Below are positions 1 through 5,630 of a stretch of DNA of 5,630 nucleotides, piece after piece. Within the stretch, counting starts at the first letter, position 1. Each line of letters opens with the position of its first letter. The stretch is taken from the IMG/VR virus record IMGVR_UViG_3300045988_012546; one strand, 5' to 3'. This DNA is from a virus. The position numbers were made by a program, and so were the translations under genes. Below the pieces are notes generated by a model, which had not been told where the DNA came from, made no database searches, and was given only the letters and a program-made list of their open reading frames with translations.

Positions 1-55
1 TACTTGCACTCCCGATTGTTCCCTGCGCTCCGCTTGGAGTGCTTGCGCCGCCTTG
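1..55. repeat. Left copy of the exact 55-nt direct terminal repeat (identical to 5576-5630); circular-contig overlap
   Basis: The string tacttgcactcccgattgttccctgcgctccgcttggagtgcttgcgccgccttg occurs at both window ends. The minus-strand reading frame is continuous across the junction. Confidence 0.98.
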
Positions 56-2775: not shown

Positions 2776-2995
2776 CGTAAATATTCTCCTTTGCTTCTTC
2801 AAACAGTCCGGTTTTTTCGTCGAATCTTGCAAGTCGTACCAGTCTGTAATCGCTTGGTGTCTTATTCATGATGTTGTGCTCGTCAGTCAGCGCAATTTTA
2901 AAATTGCGCTCGGCGACTTTGTCATCTCTTTCGGTAAAGATCGTGATGTAGCCCATCACACAGTTGTCGTAGATTCCGTATACATTAGTGCTCAC
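2753..2995 (-). CDS. VP5: VP5-like small non-structural protein (gokushovirus ORF5 family, tentative), 80 aa
   Basis: GTG start at 2995 with GAGGAGGT 8 nt upstream. It overlaps the upstream stop as GTGA. The pattern VYGIYD...ERNFKIAL...NKTPSDYRLVRLARFDEKTGLF resembles the ORF5/VP5 pattern (PEDY-x-L-x-x-IG-x-FD-x-x-TG), and its position just before VP3 fits. The family call is from memory of the motif, not a search. Confidence 0.68.
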   Translation of the reverse strand: MSTNVYGIYDNCVMGYITIFTERDDKVAERNFKIALTDEHNIMNKTPSDYRLVRLARFDEKTGLFEEAKENIYDGISLSK

Positions 2996-3111
2996 AGTCG
3001 GATACCTCCTCGCATTGCGCCGTTCCCCAGATTAATAGCTTTGGTCTTTCGTGCGGTCTTGTTGTAGATTTTTGTGTCTTTGGATTTGCGGACTTTATTC
3101 CTCTTTCCCAT
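2992..3111 (-). CDS. ORF8: Small basic DNA-binding/packaging protein (ORF8 / phiX174 J-like), 39 aa; absent from the ORF track
   Basis: Hand translation from ATG 3111 gives MGKRNKVRKSKDTKIYNKTARKTKAINLGNGAMRGGIRL, with stop at 2994..2992. About one third of residues are K/R. The C-terminal MRGGIRL matches the conserved end of gokushovirus ORF8 proteins. AAGGGA lies 8 nt upstream. Confidence 0.8.
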   Translation of the reverse strand: MGKRNKVRKSKDTKIYNKTARKTKAINLGNGAMRGGIRL

Positions 3112-3322
3112 GGTTGATTTCCCTTCTGAGCAGTTCTACTTCGATTTCTGTTGCTTTTGCCTTTTTGCGGTATGCCACGTCAAGGTAAAATTTTGCGTCG
3201 TCGATGTTTGCGGCCTGTCGTAGCAGTTTGTACGCGTTGTCGATTTCCTTGTAGGTTCGTGTCAGTTCCTTCATTAGGTTCGTATCGGTCTGGTCTCGTA
3301 CGTTCCATACTTTTCCTTCCAT
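3095..3322 (-). CDS. Hypothetical 75-aa helical, charged protein (accessory, no recognised family)
   Basis: ATG 3322 has AAGGAG 6 nt upstream. It is co-oriented with the operon and overlaps the ORF8-like start by 17 nt. The sequence is rich in K/E/L/A, consistent with helices or a coiled coil. Confidence 0.7.
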   Translation of the reverse strand: MEGKVWNVRDQTDTNLMKELTRTYKEIDNAYKLLRQAANIDDAKFYLDVAYRKKAKATEIEVELLRREINHGKEE

Positions 3323-3325
3323 GGC

Positions 3326-3430
3326 TTACTCCTTGGGCTTGTTGCCCTCTACTGCGTGGTAAATCTTATCCAACATGGCTAAGATTTTGCGGATGTTGTT
3401 AAACAGCGCGTCAATTTCTTTGAGAGTCAG
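3326..3430 (-). CDS. Possible 34-codon ORF initiated at CTG (LTLKEIDALFNNIRKILAMLDKIYHAVEGNKPKE); speculative
   Basis: The strongest SD in the genome, TAGGAGGTG (3446..3438), is followed 9 nt after GGAGG by CTG 3430. This is the only downstream frame that stays open. Its TAA (3328..3326) lies 3 nt before the next ATG. No ATG, GTG or TTG option gives more than 9 codons. Confidence 0.25.
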   Translation of the reverse strand: MTLKEIDALFNNIRKILAMLDKIYHAVEGNKPKE

Positions 3431-3515
3431 AGCAAAACACCTCCTAAAAAATTATTTTGTATAAATGGTTTTTCAGCGGAACACTTTTGTGCTGTTCAAC
3501 TGTCTTTTTTATATC

Positions 3516-3545
3516 AAAAAAAAGAGGGTTCGTCAAGCCCTCTTT
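3516..3545 (-). terminator. Rho-independent terminator or attenuator after the Cys-rich ORF
   Basis: The minus strand reads AAAGAGGG-CTTGACGAA-CCCTCTTT followed by more T (eight consecutive T in total, complement of A 3516-3523). It starts 4 nt after the TAA at 3552..3550. Confidence 0.8.
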
Positions 3546-3549
3546 GAAA

Positions 3550-3717
3550 TTATTCTCTTCTTCGACTCAGCTCCTTTTTTACTTCGTCGTGGATGTAGCC
3601 ACAGTGGTAGCTTACATCGTGACACGGGCATTTTTCGCAATCGCCTCTGCAGCTTGCCCATTTGTAGTTCATCCACTTCAAGGTTTCGGTGTCAAGTTCC
3701 TTAAATATGTTTTTCAT
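3550..3717 (-). CDS. Small Cys/His-rich protein, 55 aa (putative metal-binding; function unknown)
   Basis: MKNIFKELDTETLKWMNYKWASCRGDCEKCPCHDVSYHCGYIHDEVKKELSRRRE. ATG 3717 follows AAAGGGGA and lies about 22 nt downstream of the predicted transcription start of the promoter at 3746-3774. The Cys/His cluster is C-x3-C-x2-C-x-C-H-x4-H-C-x3-H. A terminator follows directly. Confidence 0.7.
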   Translation of the reverse strand: MKNIFKELDTETLKWMNYKWASCRGDCEKCPCHDVSYHCGYIHDEVKKELSRRRE

Positions 3718-3745
3718 GGTCTTTTTATCCCCTTTCTTTGATTGG

Positions 3746-3774
3746 ATTATCCCACAACTTTGTCTTTTTGTCAA
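3746..3774 (-). promoter_or_regulatory. Near-consensus sigma70-type promoter, probably the main promoter of the phage operon
   Basis: The minus strand reads TTGACA (3774..3769), a 17-nt spacer, then TGgGATAAT (extended -10; hexamer 3751..3746). Upstream is the A-rich CAAAAAAGTTTCAAAAAACTA, which resembles an UP element. Confidence 0.72.
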
Positions 3775-3799
3775 TAGTTTTTTGAAACTTTTTTGATAG

Positions 3800-3839
3800 G
3801 TCATGCGGTAGGCGCGGTGCGCCGTGCGAAGAGCATGAC
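3800..3839. other. Nested GC-rich inverted repeat (hairpin in ssDNA, cruciform in the replicative form)
   Basis: Outer stem gtcatgc (3800-3806) pairs with gcatgac (3833-3839). Inner stem ggcgc (3811-3815) pairs with gcgcc (3819-3823) around the loop ggt. Confidence 0.6.
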
Positions 3840-3882
3840 GCAACTTTTCGGTTTCGCTCGCCGGACGGCCTTTATTTGCTTT

Positions 3883-3909
3883 TTTCAACACTTTCAACAC
3901 TTTCAACAG
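3883..3909 (+). repeat. Three tandem 9-bp repeats TTTCAACAC / TTTCAACAC / TTTCAACAG
   Basis: Read directly at 3883-3891, 3892-3900 and 3901-3909. The same TCAACA core recurs in the same orientation, with the extended words lying at 3957-3964, 3966-3972, 3989-3995 and 4050-4058. Confidence 0.9.
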
Positions 3910-3910
3910 G

Positions 3911-3919
3911 TTTTCCACA
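3911..3919 (+). promoter_or_regulatory. DnaA-box-like motif TTTTCCACA (fits TTWTNCACA)
   Basis: It directly follows the tandem repeats. Its CACAAAA part (3916-3922) can pair with TTTTGTG (3937-3943), as an alternative to the 3926-3945 hairpin. Confidence 0.3.
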
Positions 3920-3925
3920 AAATGT

Positions 3926-3945
3926 TGCACAAAGGTTTTTGTGCA
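3926..3945. other. Short hairpin tgcacaaa-ggtt-tttgtgca
   Basis: 8-bp perfect inverted repeat with a 4-nt loop, lying between the two DnaA-box motifs. One stem of this size is roughly what chance predicts for a genome this long. Confidence 0.45.
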
Positions 3946-3966
3946 TATTGCTACACTTTCAACAAT

Positions 3967-4050
3967 TCAACAAGTTATCCACAAAAGTATCAACATTAAA
4001 ATTAGCCAAAAAATATCGTTCCAAGGATAAGAATTCATAGTATTTAACAT
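3967..4050 (-). CDS. Candidate 27-aa hydrophobic peptide MLNTMNSYPWNDIFWLILMLILLWITC (speculative membrane-active peptide)
   Basis: Hand translation: ATG 4050..4048 with GGGAG (4062..4058) 7 nt upstream, TGA at 3969..3967. Residues 13-26 are uniformly hydrophobic or aromatic. It is below the ORF-track size cutoff. Confidence 0.3.
   Translation of the reverse strand: MLNTMNSYPWNDIFWLILMLILLWITC
3975..3983 (+). promoter_or_regulatory. Perfect DnaA-box consensus TTATCCACA
   Basis: Exact 9-mer match. It lies in a repeated context (CACTTTCAACA...TT[T/A]TCCACAAAA) shared with the 3911 motif, 64 nt away in the same orientation. Confidence 0.35.
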
Positions 4051-4108: not shown

Positions 4109-4148
4109 ATGCGCGTGTGCGCGCGATTACGTGTGCGCACGTGCATGT
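4109..4148. repeat. GC-rich alternating purine-pyrimidine block with an internal direct repeat and overlapping palindromes
   Basis: Strict Pu/Py alternation over 4109-4125 (17 nt) and 4128-4148 (21 nt). CGTGTGCGC occurs at 4114-4122 and 4130-4138. Palindromes are GTGCGCAC (4133-4140) and GCACGTGC (4137-4144). Confidence 0.85.
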
Positions 4149-4151
4149 CAA

Positions 4152-4205
4152 TATAAAACAAAAATACTCCGCCAAGTAGTCTTACTTGATAGTTACTTGG
4201 CGGAG
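4152..4205 (-). terminator. Strong rho-independent terminator after VP4; end of the phage transcription unit
   Basis: 12-bp perfect stem: ctccgccaagta (4167-4178) pairs with tacttggcggag (4194-4205), with a 15-nt loop. On the minus strand it is followed by TATTTTTGTTTTATAT. It starts 13 nt after the VP4 stop. Confidence 0.88.
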
Positions 4206-4217
4206 TGACACCACGTG

Positions 4218-5237
4218 TCAAAATATGCCTTTGGCTTTGCTCATCTTTTTGGACATAGATGCCTCTTTGTCCTTTAGCTGCTCTGCGTATGGTTTATCGG
4301 TTTCCGCGTTTCTTTCGATTAAGGACGCTATAGCTTTTTCTTGTCGATACTTCTTGATTCTCCAAGCTTTCTCAGGGTTCTCTACTTCAAGCTTTCGCCA
4401 ATAATATTCTGGTATAGCTGCTCTTTTGCCGTTGGTAAGCTGTATGTACCCCTGCTGCCAAAGTTTTTCTTGGTTGTCCTCAAACCACTTGTCTCCAAGC
4501 CCCGGTTTCCGGCTCATTGTGCAAAATGGTGGTACTAAACCCATTTTTTGGTAACGTTTTTTGTCGTTGCCGTACAGCTTTTTGGTAACATACCCTGCAA
4601 CATAATTATAGGTTTCTGGTGTTGCTTGCGCTATGTCAACTGTACCTTGCCCCCAGATTTTTACCAGCTTATCGCTTGTATAATGCCCGTGTCTTGACAG
4701 TTTGTGGATTGGTTTTAAGTCGTCCGGATGCCATCCATACAGTATCACGTGATAGTGCGGTCTCGCTGTGTTGTCTCCGTACTCTCCTGCCAAAAAGTAT
4801 CTTAGAGGCTCTTTGACGGCCTTTCTGAGCCTTTTTATAAATAGTTGGGTATCCTCTACGCTTAGAGTTTGCGCTGTTCTTGGACGCTCTGAGCCGCCTT
4901 TCCAGATGTTTATGCCGCCTTTATAGATTTCTCCTGTTTCTGTGTCTTGTGTTGGTACGTGGTCATCATCGTAGGTTAGTGTGATAAACCAGATCGTATC
5001 TTTGTTGTGTCCGTATGCTTCTAGTTCCATGCGTGTGCTCCAGTCTTTGCGCTTGCGCAATCTGCATCCGGTACACTGTCCGCATGGTATCAACATTACA
5101 TCTTTTCTGTACATTAAATTTTCGTATGTCATTTTGGTCTTGTGTATCTCGTTGAAAGAGGCGAGTGAGTCCACTCGCCCACTCGCCTCTCTGTCATGAG
5201 GTACATAAAACCGGATTAACGGTTTATTGCATCCCAT
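4218..5237 (-). CDS. VP4: VP4 rolling-circle replication initiator (HUH endonuclease, phiX174 A-like), 339 aa
   Basis: Motifs present: CGQCTGCRLRKRKDW, FITLTYDD (motif 1), RPHYHVILYG (HUH motif) and YNYVAGYVTKK (paired catalytic Tyr, compare YVAKYVNKK in phiX174 A). ATG 5237 abuts the VP2 TAA, with GAGAGGT upstream. Confidence 0.96.
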   Translation of the reverse strand: MGCNKPLIRFYVPHDREASGRVDSLASFNEIHKTKMTYENLMYRKDVMLIPCGQCTGCRLRKRKDWSTRMELEAYGHNKDTIWFITLTYDDDHVPTQDTETGEIYKGGINIWKGGSERPRTAQTLSVEDTQLFIKRLRKAVKEPLRYFLAGEYGDNTARPHYHVILYGWHPDDLKPIHKLSRHGHYTSDKLVKIWGQGTVDIAQATPETYNYVAGYVTKKLYGNDKKRYQKMGLVPPFCTMSRKPGLGDKWFEDNQEKLWQQGYIQLTNGKRAAIPEYYWRKLEVENPEKAWRIKKYRQEKAIASLIERNAETDKPYAEQLKDKEASMSKKMSKAKGIF

Positions 5238-5630
5238 TTATTTACCTCTCGGATTTATGCTCATATACCCTGTGGGCAAGTATCTTCTTGTACTTTCGAG
5301 TCTGTTTGCAAGTTCGTTTTTTGCTTTGTCTGCTACGGGTAAGGCTGCGAACTTTTCTTTAAGCTTGGCCGCGTTTTCCGCTGCCGTTTCGGCTATGGCC
5401 TCCATGTCTCCTTTGAGTCTTACCGGACTTGAGCTGCTCGACATGATAGCTTGCTGGATGCTCTGTGCTGCGTTTTCTGCGTGACTCCATGCTTCGCTGT
5501 GGCTACTCCAACTGCCGTCTTGTTTGATTCCCGGTAATGCTGTTGCTCCCAGTGCGCTGCTGGATGCCATACCCATACTTGCACTCCCGATTGTTCCCTG
5601 CGCTCCGCTTGGAGTGCTTGCGCCGCCTTG
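5238..5630 (-). CDS. VP2: VP2 minor capsid / DNA pilot protein, C-terminal portion (5576-5630 duplicates 1-55)
   Basis: The frame is open from the window end ([25 protein letters not shown]...) to TAA at 5240..5238. That stop directly abuts the VP4 ATG (TAAATG). Confidence 0.9.
   Translation of the reverse strand, partial: QGGASTPSGAQGTIGSASMGMASSSALGATALPGIKQDGSWSSHSEAWSHAENAAQSIQQAIMSSSSSPVRLKGDMEAIAETAAENAAKLKEKFAALPVADKAKNELANRLESTRRYLPTGYMSINPRGK
5576..5630. repeat. Right copy of the exact 55-nt direct terminal repeat (identical to 1-55)
   Basis: Character-by-character identity with 1-55. A 55-nt overlap is what a de Bruijn assembler using k=55 leaves on a circular molecule (inference). 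Confidence 0.98.

What the first reader, a model, noticed from the sequence alone, without database searches (positions are those of the whole stretch)
3513..3774. Self-contained promoter-gene-terminator cassette encoding a 55-aa Cys/His-rich protein
**What the sequence shows.**
- A near-perfect promoter is present: TTGACA, 17 nt, TGnGATAAT, with an A-tract upstream.
- It is followed by a single small ORF with the cluster C-x3-C-x2-C-x-C-H-x4-H-C-x3-H.
- A clean terminator with an 8-T tail follows directly.

**Why it matters.**
- This is the layout of a moron-like autonomous unit, and the protein is not one of the recognised gokushovirus core proteins.
- C-x3-C-x2-C is the spacing used for 4Fe-4S binding in radical-SAM proteins, but 55 aa is far too small for such an enzyme. 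A small zinc or Fe-S binding regulator, a host-takeover factor or an anti-defence factor is more plausible.
- I found no second convincing promoter. The terminator may therefore act as an attenuator that sets the ratio of this protein to the downstream structural genes.
Basis: partly seen in the sequence, partly recalled or inferred. Interest (0 to 1): 0.65.

Follow-up and report, generated by a model that had tools for sequence, protein, structure and literature searches.

The report
Swappable small-gene cassette inside a gokushovirus promoter
The promoter, 55-aa gene and terminator are all real, but the gene is one optional occupant of a slot in a gut microvirus genome that holds other small genes or none in sister genomes, and its "terminator" also carries the promoter for the rest of the phage genes.

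Summary
On the minus strand of a circular ~5.58-kb gokushovirus genome lie a promoter P1 (TTGACA-17-TGgGATAAT, 3774-3746), a 55-aa ORF (3717-3550) and a hairpin with a T8 tail (3545-3516).

- **The gene is real.** It has more than 30 homologues, all in microviruses. Median dN/dS is 0.15. The 126-aa GTG form is not conserved.
- **The metal site is smaller than reported.** Only four cysteines are invariant (C-x3-C-x2-C-x8/9-C). The fifth Cys and all three His vary. AlphaFold gives a helix / Cys-loop / helix shape with no match in Pfam, PHROGs, NCBIfam, PADLOC or PDB.
- **The slot is variable.** In 81 genomes sharing the upstream non-coding motif (W included), the first gene called after P1 (64 genomes) falls into at least 7 unrelated small-protein families. 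Some genomes carry two cargo genes and 11 carry none.
- **The terminator also holds a second promoter, P2.** Its loop is a -35 box (TTGACG), its T-tract is the spacer, and TGaTATAAA is an extended -10 (3536-3508). In cargo-less genomes this is the only promoter-like site found in that region.

So this is a moron-like accessory unit split into the backbone promoter, not a single promoter plus attenuator. The protein's function is unknown. My best guess is a dispensable metal-stapled host-takeover or counter-defence factor.

The parts
3775..3797 (-). A-tract / UP-like region upstream of P1 (caaaaaagtttcaaaaaacta). The string TTTCAAA..TTGAC recurs at the terminator, giving a direct repeat that flanks the cassette.
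   Evidence: The same TTTCAAA-N-TTGAC string precedes both -35 boxes.
3746..3774 (-). Promoter P1: -35 TTGACA (3774-3769), 17-nt spacer, TG (3754-3753), -10 GATAAT (3751-3746).
   Evidence: 11/12 plus TG. (11 of 2000 shuffles). A conserved TTGAC[AT]-16/18-TGnTAnAAT lies about 50-65 nt after the conserved motif in relatives.
3718..3745 (-). 5' UTR with Shine-Dalgarno GAAAGGGGA (3736-3728). The UTR core AATCAAAGAAAGG is shared by cassettes that carry unrelated cargo genes.
3550..3717 (-). 55-aa Cys4 protein gene (stop codon included): MKNIFKELDTETLKWMNYKWASCRGDCEKCPCHDVSYHCGYIHDEVKKELSRRRE.
   Evidence: Homologues. Median dN/dS 0.15. Invariant C23, C27, C30, C39. AlphaFold2 helix-loop-helix at pLDDT 73.
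3516..3545 (-). Intrinsic-terminator-like hairpin (arms 3545-3535 and 3531-3521, loop GAC) followed by a T8 run (3523-3516).
   Evidence: -10.8 kcal/mol here, -13 to -17 kcal/mol in L013, L015, L026 and L027; 86% of cells paired and 4 pairs changed on both sides.
3508..3536 (-). Promoter P2, overlapping the terminator: -35 TTGACG (3536-3531, in the hairpin loop), 17-nt spacer made of the right arm plus T8, TG (3516-3515), -10 TATAAA (3513-3508).
   Evidence: It is the promoter-like site left in this region of cargo-less genomes L034, L036, L037, L060, L075, L096, L098, L107, L108 and L112 and in the P1-deleted KT264789. The same composite sits in an Enterococcus phage IME-EF1 intergenic region.
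3799..3822 (-). Conserved non-coding motif GGCGCACCGCGCCTAcCGCATGAC, which anchors the slot. It is the 3' edge of the conserved VP4-P1 intergenic region.
   Evidence: exact matches in 84 IMG/VR microvirus contigs; it is part of inverted repeat I1.

Best explanation
**Context.** The window is a circular gokushovirus genome with every gene on the minus strand.

**What 3508-3797 is.** It is a promoter-embedded accessory-gene cassette.
- A strong sigma-70/sigma-A-type extended -10 promoter (P1) makes a short transcript of about 220 nt.
- That transcript carries one Shine-Dalgarno-led gene and ends at an intrinsic terminator.
- The terminator is bifunctional. Its loop carries a -35 box (TTGACG) and its right arm plus the T8 tract form a 17-nt spacer. 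TGaTATAAA is an extended -10. Together they form promoter P2.
- P2 is the backbone promoter for the downstream operon: small ORFs, VP8-like, VP5, VP3, VP1, VP2, VP4.
- The cargo is therefore expressed as its own unit, insulated from the structural operon to a degree set by hairpin strength.

**How the cassette turns over.**
- It is bounded by direct repeats of the -35 region (TTTCAAA..TTGAC).
- Recombination or replication slippage between these repeats, and between the shared UTR and hairpin flanks, deletes or swaps the cargo. This step is inferred.
- That would explain sister genomes with zero, one or two genes from at least 7 unrelated families.

**The cargo here.**
- It belongs to a new, microvirus-restricted family of about 55-60 aa.
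- It is a near-neutral helical hairpin. The connecting loop and the start of helix 2 carry four invariant cysteines (C-x3-C-x2-C-x8/9-C).
- These most likely bind one metal ion, as Zn(Cys)4, or possibly an Fe-S cluster in an anaerobic host.
- The protein is dispensable for the virus.
- It probably acts early by binding a host protein, as a host-takeover or counter-defence factor, in a Firmicutes-type host.

**Shown from sequence:** the anatomy, conservation, purifying selection, variable cargo, empty slots, and P2 as the remaining promoter-like site.

**Inferred:** actual transcript ends, metal binding, the recombination mechanism, and the protein's target and role.
For: **Gene.**
- Homologues occur only in microvirus contigs, always between VP4 and VP5.
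- Pairwise dN/dS is 0.05-0.29 with a median of 0.15. Third codon positions vary most.
- Upstream in-frame stops in 14 of 18 relatives rule out the 126-aa form.
- Four Cys are invariant across distant homologues.
- The structure model is helix 10-21 / Cys loop / helix 39-54.

**P1.**

**Variable slot.**
- Similarity between W and KT264790 stops at 3710 and resumes at 3545.
- KT264790, KT264788 and MG945657 carry unrelated ORFs between the same P1 and the same hairpin.
- 8 clusters of first genes were found among 64 genomes.
- The distance from the motif to the backbone ORF is trimodal: about 210-270 (empty, 11 genomes), 350-500 (one gene) and 520-760 (two genes).

**Terminator.** Folding energies and covariation support it.

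**P2.**
- TTGAC, the T-tract and TGATA are invariant in 13 sequences, while the stem varies.
- P2 is the second-best promoter-like site on the coding strand.
- Empty-slot genomes keep a single TTGACA-17/18-TAAAAT, TATACT or (TG)TATAAC site at exactly this position.
- Among these, the -10 boxes that lack T at position 6 all have the TG extension.
- KT264789, L060 and L107 have lost the P1 -10 but keep the composite.
- Enterococcus phage IME-EF1 has the same arrangement in front of a gene: a hairpin with TTGACG in its loop, T6, then TGtTATAGT.

**Host type.** Strong Shine-Dalgarno sites precede nearly all genes.
Against: - No transcript data exist for any of these phages. Every promoter and terminator call is a consensus match plus conservation.
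- The P2 -10 in this window (TATAAA) lacks the usually critical T at position 6.
- The W hairpin has a mismatch and is only marginally better than shuffles on its own.
- The hairpin is degraded in L006, L007 and L029 although they keep a cargo gene. Termination is therefore not essential.
- Another clade (L001-4, L008-12, L020) has the Cys4 gene with no hairpin at all. There it is directly followed by the next gene, so the Cys4 gene can also sit in a plain operon.
- Conservation of TTGAC could partly reflect shared descent of a palindrome, since TTG pairs with CAA.
- Metagenomic contigs with empty slots are not proven to be viable phages.
- Nothing links the protein to any target. Purifying selection (dN/dS about 0.15) shows no arms-race signature.
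- The model is of medium confidence (pLDDT 73), and metal binding is inferred only from the four conserved Cys.
Confidence: 0.62

Rival explanations
1. P1 is the only promoter for the whole rightward operon, and the hairpin is a leaky attenuator that sets the ratio of the small protein to the structural proteins. This mirrors phiX174, where constitutive promoters combine with weak terminators.
For: - P1 is the best promoter match in the genome.
- phiX174 terminators TJ, TF and TG block only 20-40% of transcription (10.1101/2020.03.05.979765).
- The hairpin in this window is imperfect.
- In clades without a hairpin, P1 must drive the downstream genes.
Against: - A -35 / 17-nt / TG-extended -10 arrangement overlaps the hairpin and is more conserved than the stem.
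- Genomes that have lost the P1 -10 (KT264789, L060, L107) or the whole cassette still carry this second promoter, and no other was found in the region.
- Read-through from P1 may still contribute, so the two models can coexist in part.
Confidence: 0.15
2. The hairpin is mainly a structure of the packaged single-stranded viral DNA rather than an RNA terminator. It could be a priming, packaging or recombination signal. Its position after the ORF would then be incidental.
For: - The viral strand has the same sense as the mRNA, so the hairpin also forms in ssDNA.
- The hairpin is retained in genomes with no cargo left to terminate (L037, L060, L107, L108, L112).
- Duplications and deletions cluster at it.
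Against: - A GC-rich stem followed directly by T8-T10 is the canonical intrinsic-terminator layout.
- A sequence-unrelated hairpin with a T13 tail sits at the same place in L014, L024 and L025.
- The same composite occurs in a dsDNA Enterococcus phage between two genes.
- In a circular one-strand genome, a terminator just upstream of the promoter would also stop genome-length transcripts. That explains why it is kept without cargo.
Confidence: 0.1
3. The Cys4 protein is a phage-directed regulator or replication/assembly factor rather than a host-directed accessory factor. For example, it could be a metal-dependent DNA- or RNA-binding protein that controls the P1/P2 switch or the nearby conserved origin-like region.
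For: - It is encoded next to the conserved non-coding region with iterons and DnaA boxes.
- It is under purifying selection.
- Several known small phage regulators are zinc-binding proteins (from my own knowledge).
Against: - Sister genomes with the same non-coding region, P1 and P2 carry unrelated proteins or none.
- Net charge is about +1, unlike the basic VP8-like protein.
- No DNA-binding domain was detected.
Confidence: 0.1
4. The four cysteines bind an Fe-S cluster, or form disulfides or a redox switch, rather than structural zinc. The protein would then act as a redox or iron-dependent effector.
For: - C-x3-C-x2-C is the spacing used by radical-SAM [4Fe-4S] sites.
- A nearly invariant Pro follows the third Cys, as in ferredoxin C-P motifs (the ferredoxin comparison is from my own knowledge).
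- The likely hosts are gut anaerobes.
Against: - There is no radical-SAM or ferredoxin profile match.
- 55 aa cannot hold the radical-SAM fold.
- Cys4 sites in small helical proteins are most often zinc sites (from my own knowledge).
- Sequence alone cannot decide this.
Confidence: 0.2

Closest known systems
Morons of lambdoid/HK97-type phages (Juhala/Hendrix; reviewed in PMC3594210)
   Same: A small extra gene with its own promoter and its own terminator. It is present in some genomes and absent from close relatives, and it is dispensable.
   Different: - The promoter and terminator here belong to the conserved backbone, and only the ORF changes.
- GC content is not distinct.
- There is no prophage state from which it would be expressed.
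- The unit is inserted inside the main promoter: -35 duplicated, terminator fused to a regenerated promoter.
phiX174 transcription architecture: constitutive promoters PA/PB/PD plus weak intrinsic terminators TJ/TF/TG/TH (10.1101/2020.03.05.979765)
   Same: Same virus family. Expression ratios are set by promoter and terminator strength, with no dedicated regulators.
   Different: - In the phiX174 literature read here I saw no terminator that houses a promoter's -35 box and no variable cargo slot; I did not look for either systematically.
- No gokushovirus transcript map turned up in my searches.
Anti-defence / anti-CRISPR accessory loci: small, unrelated, rapidly exchanged genes at a fixed position behind a strong early promoter (for example the regulatory-sequence-guided discovery in PMC11065993)
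   Same: A fixed locus, a strong conserved promoter, cargo of 55-68 aa from many unrelated families, and presence/absence variation among close relatives.
   Different: - No Aca-like HTH regulator is present.
- No cargo family matches a known anti-defence protein or any PHROG of known function.
- The function has not been tested.
Enterococcus Saphexavirus (IME-EF1) intergenic terminator/promoter element, KF192053 29206-29251
   Same: 87% identical over 45 nt. It has a hairpin with TTGACG in its loop, a T-tract, then a TG-extended -10 at 17 nt, followed by a Shine-Dalgarno site and a gene.
   Different: - It lies in a 57-kb dsDNA siphovirus and is not associated with a variable cargo slot, as far as I examined it.
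- It is not annotated in that record either.
Twin CX3C / CHCH helical hairpins (small Tim proteins, Cox17) and small Cys4 zinc proteins
   Same: Two antiparallel helices tied together by cysteines placed at the hairpin end. C23-x3-C27 faces C39-x3-H43 in this copy.
   Different: - The second x3 partner (H43) is not conserved, whereas C30 is.
- There is no sequence or fold match.
- The resemblance comes from memory only.

Membership tests
Moron (independent transcription unit added to a phage genome) | Own promoter upstream of the gene | tested here: met
   P1 is an 11/12 match plus TG and is conserved in relatives. This is sequence-level evidence only.
Moron (independent transcription unit added to a phage genome) | Own terminator downstream | tested here: met
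   A hairpin plus T8, with covariation. This is sequence-level evidence only.
Moron (independent transcription unit added to a phage genome) | Present in some genomes and absent from otherwise similar relatives | tested here: met
   11 empty-slot genomes, and relatives with other cargo.
Moron (independent transcription unit added to a phage genome) | Base composition differs from the surrounding genes | tested here: not met
   GC is 43.5% against 45.9% for the genome. That lies within the spread of coding windows.
Moron (independent transcription unit added to a phage genome) | Expressed from a repressed prophage to benefit the lysogen | not testable with these tools
   No integrase or repressor was detected in the window. 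The lifestyle is unknown.
Radical-SAM enzymes | A CX3CX2C motif inside a partial TIM-barrel of about 200 aa or more, with SAM-binding motifs | tested here: not met
   The motif spacing is present, but the protein is 55 aa and has no Pfam or NCBIfam hit.
Intrinsic (Rho-independent) terminator | GC-rich stem-loop directly followed by a U-tract | tested here: met
   An 11-pair stem with one mismatch, then T8.
Intrinsic (Rho-independent) terminator | Stem maintained by compensatory changes | tested here: met
   4 pairs are changed on both sides and 86% of cells are paired. 0 of 500 shuffles reach the covariation score. Three relatives have a degraded stem.
Intrinsic (Rho-independent) terminator | Transcript 3' ends at the U-tract | not testable with these tools
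   This needs Term-seq or in vitro transcription.
Sigma-70/sigma-A extended -10 promoter (P2) | A -35 hexamer, a 16-18 nt spacer, and TGn plus a -10 hexamer | tested here: met
   TTGACG-17-TGaTATAAA at 3536-3508. T at -10 position 6 is missing in this copy.
Sigma-70/sigma-A extended -10 promoter (P2) | Conserved as the functional promoter in relatives | tested here: met
   It is the promoter-like site found in this region of 10 cargo-less genomes and of KT264789. TTGAC and TGATA are invariant.
Sigma-70/sigma-A extended -10 promoter (P2) | Mapped transcription start | not testable with these tools
   This needs 5' RACE, Cappable-seq or reporter fusions.
Anti-CRISPR / anti-defence locus | Homology to a known anti-defence protein, or an adjacent Aca-type HTH regulator | tested here: not met
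   There are no hits for any cargo family and no HTH gene next to the slot. No dedicated anti-defence library was available.
Known zinc-finger / zinc-ribbon families | Profile or fold match to a curated family | tested here: not met
   - Pfam, PHROGs and NCBIfam give no hit.
- The best PDB sequence match has E = 2.
- Foldseek against PDB gives nothing below E = 1.6.
- The only BFVD hit is a microvirus homologue.

The most novel reading that the evidence does not exclude
Gut gokushoviruses carry a dedicated cassette-exchange site built into their main promoter.
- Short direct repeats of the -35 region, together with a half-terminator in the promoter spacer, let small genes be inserted, swapped or lost without ever leaving the structural operon promoterless.
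- The cargo, including this Cys4 metalloprotein, would be a previously unrecognised repertoire of microvirus counter-defence or host-takeover proteins.
Probability: 0.3. Interest if true: 0.75.

Novelty: new variant of a known kind. Interest (0 to 1): 0.55.

Why it matters
- **Accessory genes in microviruses.** Microviruses are described as having very limited accessory gene repertoires, and their many small peptides of about 65 aa are unassigned (PMC9239249). I found no transcript map for any gokushovirus. This locus gives a concrete, testable map of where such a phage starts and stops transcription.
- **A fixed swap site.** It shows that a 5.6-kb ssDNA phage keeps a position where dispensable small genes are exchanged. 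At least 7 protein families of unknown function sit there, all expressed from the same strong promoter. That is a compact hunting ground for host-takeover or anti-defence factors of gut Firmicutes phages.
- **A reusable regulatory part.** The overlapping terminator/promoter element also occurs in Enterococcus siphophages and may be a general design in Firmicutes phages.
- **The protein.** It defines a new family of small proteins with four conserved cysteines.

Tried and rejected
**Protein searches that gave no assignment.**
- Pfam, PHROGs, NCBIfam and PADLOC gave no hit for the 55-aa protein, for its 126-aa extension, or for an alignment of 19 homologues.
- A PDB profile search gave only an E = 2 match of the Cys stretch to a Kunitz-type seed protein. 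That match probably explains the misleading public name 'trypsin inhibitor... Kunitz' on homologue P0008.
- Foldseek against PDB returned only generic helical hairpins (ribosomal L29, Rop) at E > 1.
- Foldseek against BFVD returned only a microvirus homologue misnamed 'Hui1'.
- The exhaustive HMMER search found 15 proteins. Three of them (P0021, P0028, P0032) are repeat-driven artefacts.
- The bacterial genome scan returned only short Cys-rich chance matches: a Clostridia membrane-protein C-terminus and a Planctomycetota Cys repeat. No prophage or host homologue was found, so this route does not identify the host.
- The other cargo families also have no known function.

**Other searches and ideas dropped.**
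- Rfam found nothing in the window.
- The 126-aa GTG form is rejected.
- A radical-SAM assignment is rejected on size and the lack of any profile match.
- Foreign base composition is rejected.
- Literature searches found no description of gokushovirus promoters or terminators, or of this slot.
Full report
**Context.**
- The window is a complete circular gokushovirus genome. A 55-nt terminal direct repeat means the true length is about 5575 nt.
- All genes lie on the minus strand:
  - VP1, 587-2284
  - VP3, 2281-2832
  - VP5, 2753-2995
  - a basic 39-aa VP8-like protein, 2992-3111
  - a 75-aa ORF, 3095-3322
  - the Cys-rich ORF, 3550-3717
  - VP4, 4218-5237
  - the C-terminal part of VP2, 5238-5576
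- The nearest GenBank records are gut 'Gokushovirus WZ-2015a' and pig or human faecal Microviridae. They match about 85% over roughly 40-70% of the genome.
- Strong Shine-Dalgarno sites precede nearly every gene. This points to a Shine-Dalgarno-using, Firmicutes-type host in which a TTGACA/TATAAT promoter is meaningful.

**Observation check.**
- P1 is TTGACA (3774-3769), a 17-nt spacer, and TGgGATAAT (3754-3746), behind A-tracts.
- An 11/12 site with TG appears in only 11 of 2000 dinucleotide shuffles.
- The ORF has 55 codons, from ATG 3717 to TAA 3552-3550, with the stated Cys/His pattern.
- The hairpin AAAGAGGGCTT-GAC-GAACCCTCTTT (3545-3521) is followed by T8.
- Its folding energy is -10.8 kcal/mol, with one C.A mismatch. 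On its own it is only marginally unusual (z = -1.65).

**The gene is real and the 55-aa form is the product.**
- tblastn finds unannotated homologues in four GenBank microviruses.
- Protein searches find about 30 distinct homologues, all short and all from microvirus-sized contigs.
- The gene always lies between VP4 and VP5.
- Nineteen distinct coding sequences give pairwise dN/dS of 0.05-0.29, with a median of 0.15. Third-position variation is in excess.
- Only this window has the long in-frame upstream extension. In 14 of 18 relatives a stop lies 3-9 codons upstream of the ATG. In L024 the annotated 99-aa form runs across the promoter itself.

**What the protein looks like.**
- Across close and distant homologues only C23, C27, C30 and C39 are invariant, giving C-x3-C-x2-C-x8/9-C.
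- C32 is replaced by N, Y or F. H33 and H38 vary freely. H43 is N or Y in several homologues. P31 is nearly invariant.
- The N-terminal LDTETLxWMxYK segment and the C-terminal KELxRR helix are also conserved.
- AlphaFold2 on 19 sequences gives helix 10-21, a Cys loop and helix 39-54, with pLDDT 73.
- Nothing matches in Pfam, PHROGs, NCBIfam, PADLOC, PDB sequences or PDB folds.
- The only structural neighbour is a microvirus homologue carrying the spurious name 'Hui1'.
- Net charge is about +1 (read from the sequence), so it is not a J/VP8-like DNA condenser.
- A four-cysteine metal site stapling a helical hairpin is the most economical reading. Sequence cannot separate zinc from Fe-S.

**The key result: a variable slot.**
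- The closest GenBank relatives keep P1 and keep the hairpin, but carry different genes between them:

| Genome | Cargo between P1 and the hairpin |
|---|---|
| KT264790 | a 61-aa and a 56-aa ORF |
| KT264788 | a 65-aa ORF |
| MG945657 | a 62-aa ORF |
| KT264789 | a deletion that removes the P1 -10 and most of the cargo |

- Pairwise BLAST places the breakpoints of W against KT264790 at 3710 and 3545, that is, at the start codon and at the first base of the hairpin. The flanks are 81-88% identical.
- I then fetched 84 IMG/VR contigs that share the conserved non-coding motif GGCGCACCGCGCCTAnCGCATGAC just upstream of P1. Eighty of them, plus W, were analysed.
- Nearly all have P1 about 50-65 nt after the motif.
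- A first gene was called in 64 genomes. These genes fall into 8 clusters:
  - a YDTKKYRY...LDPENW family, n = 20
  - a family starting MRKPRL / EAGHEVEKGK, n = 15
  - an EPKxAK family, n = 11
  - the Cys4 family, n = 11 including W
  - four smaller clusters, one of which (L066) is the conserved backbone ORF rather than cargo
- None has a known function.
- The distance from the motif to a conserved downstream ORF is trimodal: empty (11 genomes), one gene, or two genes.
- The cargo is therefore dispensable and exchangeable, and the Cys4 gene is one option among at least seven.
- The shared 5' UTR (AATCAAAGAAAGG) and the shared hairpin are the likely recombination flanks.

**The terminator is also a promoter.**
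- In an alignment of 13 hairpin regions the invariant columns are TTGAC, the T-tract and TGATA. The stem varies.
- Stem changes are compensated in some genomes: G-C to C-G in L015-L019 and C-G to A-U in KT264790.
- In others the stem simply decays: L006, L007 and L029.
- TTGAC[A/G], a 17-nt spacer and TGnTA[T/C]A.. form an extended -10 promoter. In W it is TTGACG-17-TGaTATAAA at 3536-3508.
- It is the second-best promoter-like site on the coding strand. The tool's scan skipped it because position 6 of the hexamer is A.
- Empty-slot genomes show what this element does.
  - In L036, L075, L098, L034 and L096 the P1 upstream region and a single TTGACA are fused directly to the right half of the hairpin. 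They then use TGaTATAAC, TGaTACAAA or TGaTAAAAT as the -10.
  - In L037, L060, L107, L108 and L112 the P1 -10 and the cargo are deleted. The full hairpin, with TTGACA-17/18-TATACT or TAAAAT, remains.
  - These genomes have no other promoter-like site in this region.
  - The -10 boxes lacking T at position 6 all carry the TG extension.
- Enterococcus phage IME-EF1 has an 87%-identical element over 45 nt between two genes. It is a hairpin with TTGACG in its loop, T6, then TGtTATAGT, then a Shine-Dalgarno site and ATG.
- This suggests an overlapping terminator/promoter design in Firmicutes phages.

**Model.**
- P1 produces a short cargo mRNA that stops at the hairpin.
- P2, embedded in that hairpin, starts the structural operon.
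- Read-through from P1 adds to P2 to a degree set by hairpin strength.
- Because the genome is a circle with one coding strand, the same hairpin would also stop genome-length transcripts just before they re-enter P2. That would explain its retention in some cargo-less genomes.
- The cassette is flanked by direct repeats of the -35 region (TTTCAAA..TTGAC).
- Deletions end at or near the two TTGAC boxes (KT264789, L060, L107), and duplications lie next to them in L063. This fits slippage or recombination at the repeats.
- A different clade (L001-4, L008-12, L020) has the Cys4 gene with no hairpin, directly abutting the next gene. The Cys4 gene itself is therefore not tied to the terminator.

**Function of the protein.**
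- This is inference only.
- It is promoter-proximal, probably transcribed first, small, dispensable, replaced by unrelated small proteins in sister genomes, and free of nucleic-acid-binding features.
- That profile fits accessory host-takeover or counter-defence proteins, as seen in anti-CRISPR loci and in the promoter-guided anti-defence discovery of PMC11065993.
- Against this, no homology supports it, no Aca-like regulator is present, and selection is purifying rather than diversifying.

**Comparison with known systems.**
- It works like a moron: own promoter, own terminator, optional (PMC3594210). It fails the composition criterion, and its promoter and terminator belong to the backbone.
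- It resembles phiX174's regulator-free promoter/terminator economy (10.1101/2020.03.05.979765). In what I read of phiX174 I saw no terminator-embedded promoter and no cargo slot.
- It is not a radical-SAM protein or a member of any curated zinc-finger family.

**Verdict.**
- This is a new variant of a known kind: a moron-like accessory cassette in a family said to have few accessory genes (PMC9239249). It carries a new Cys4 mini-protein family and a bifunctional terminator/promoter.

Noticed in passing
window 3880-3997 (viral strand = minus): - This is the most widely conserved non-coding piece of the genome: 83-88% nt identity in more than 12 otherwise diverged gokushoviruses.
- It holds 9-nt iterons (TGTTGAAAG, at least 5 copies).
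- It holds two DnaA-box matches on the + strand: TTATCCACA at 3975-3983 (perfect consensus) and TTTTCCACA at 3911-3919. Each sits in a 21-nt direct repeat.
- TTWTNCACA has 4 hits against 0.44 expected, and 0 of 200 shuffles reach 4.
- An inverted repeat (3937-3947 / 3976-3986) would put a DnaA box in an ssDNA stem.
- This makes it a candidate complementary-strand origin of the DnaA-box-hairpin type.
   Followed up: partly
window 4166-4206: - A perfect 13-bp inverted repeat (ACTCCGCCAAGTA / TACTTGGCGGAGT) with a 15-nt loop lies just after the VP4 stop.
- Relatives show a compensatory change: CCGCC to CAGCC paired with GGCGG to GGCTG (sequences).
- It is a candidate Rep-recognised origin hairpin.
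- GC-rich CGTGTGCGCGCG repeats follow at 4114-4141.
   Followed up: partly
window 3326-3430 (minus strand): - A conserved 34-aa ORF (LTLKEIDALFNNIRKILAMLDKIYHAVEGNKPKE) lies 9 nt after a perfect AGGAGG, with no ATG, GTG or TTG start. It appears to start at CTG 3430.
- The relative L066 has a normal ATG two codons earlier.
- Its stop overlaps the Shine-Dalgarno site of the 75-aa ORF.
- The ORF lister cannot report it as such, because it starts ORFs only at ATG, GTG or TTG.
   Followed up: partly
L033 1501-1546 (Enterococcus phage IME-EF1, KF192053 29206-29251), plus about 40 related Saphexavirus records: - An 87%-identical, 45-nt match to the window's terminator/P2 composite lies in an unannotated intergenic region between two same-strand genes.
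- It could be a host clue (Enterococcus or another Firmicute), horizontal transfer, or convergence.
   Followed up: partly
L026 about 1205-1215; L027 about 1265-1272; L056 and L086 (segments printed): In several unrelated cargo families the ORF runs into the left arm of the hairpin and stops at the TGA inside the TTGAC -35 box. The last 3-4 residues (KEG, KGT, KED, KEA) are therefore encoded by the terminator stem.
   Followed up: no
L063, L091, L101, L066 (segments printed): - Tandem duplications of 40-100 nt lie in this region. In L063 they are bounded by the GAGGGCTTGACAAG repeat.
- In L046 and L063 the start codon of the cargo gene is ATA instead of ATG.
- These are either real instability of the slot or metagenome assembly artefacts.
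   Followed up: no
P0008 (nr) and BFVD A0A8S5R347: Public records name homologues of the Cys4 protein 'TRYPSIN INHIBITOR ... KUNITZ' and 'Hui1'. Both names appear to come from weak matches of the Cys-rich stretch (E = 2) and should not be propagated.
   Followed up: yes
window 1-55 and 5576-5630: A 55-nt exact terminal direct repeat marks a circular assembly. VP2 runs across the junction, so the 112-aa ORF at 5238-5576 is only its C-terminal part.
   Followed up: yes
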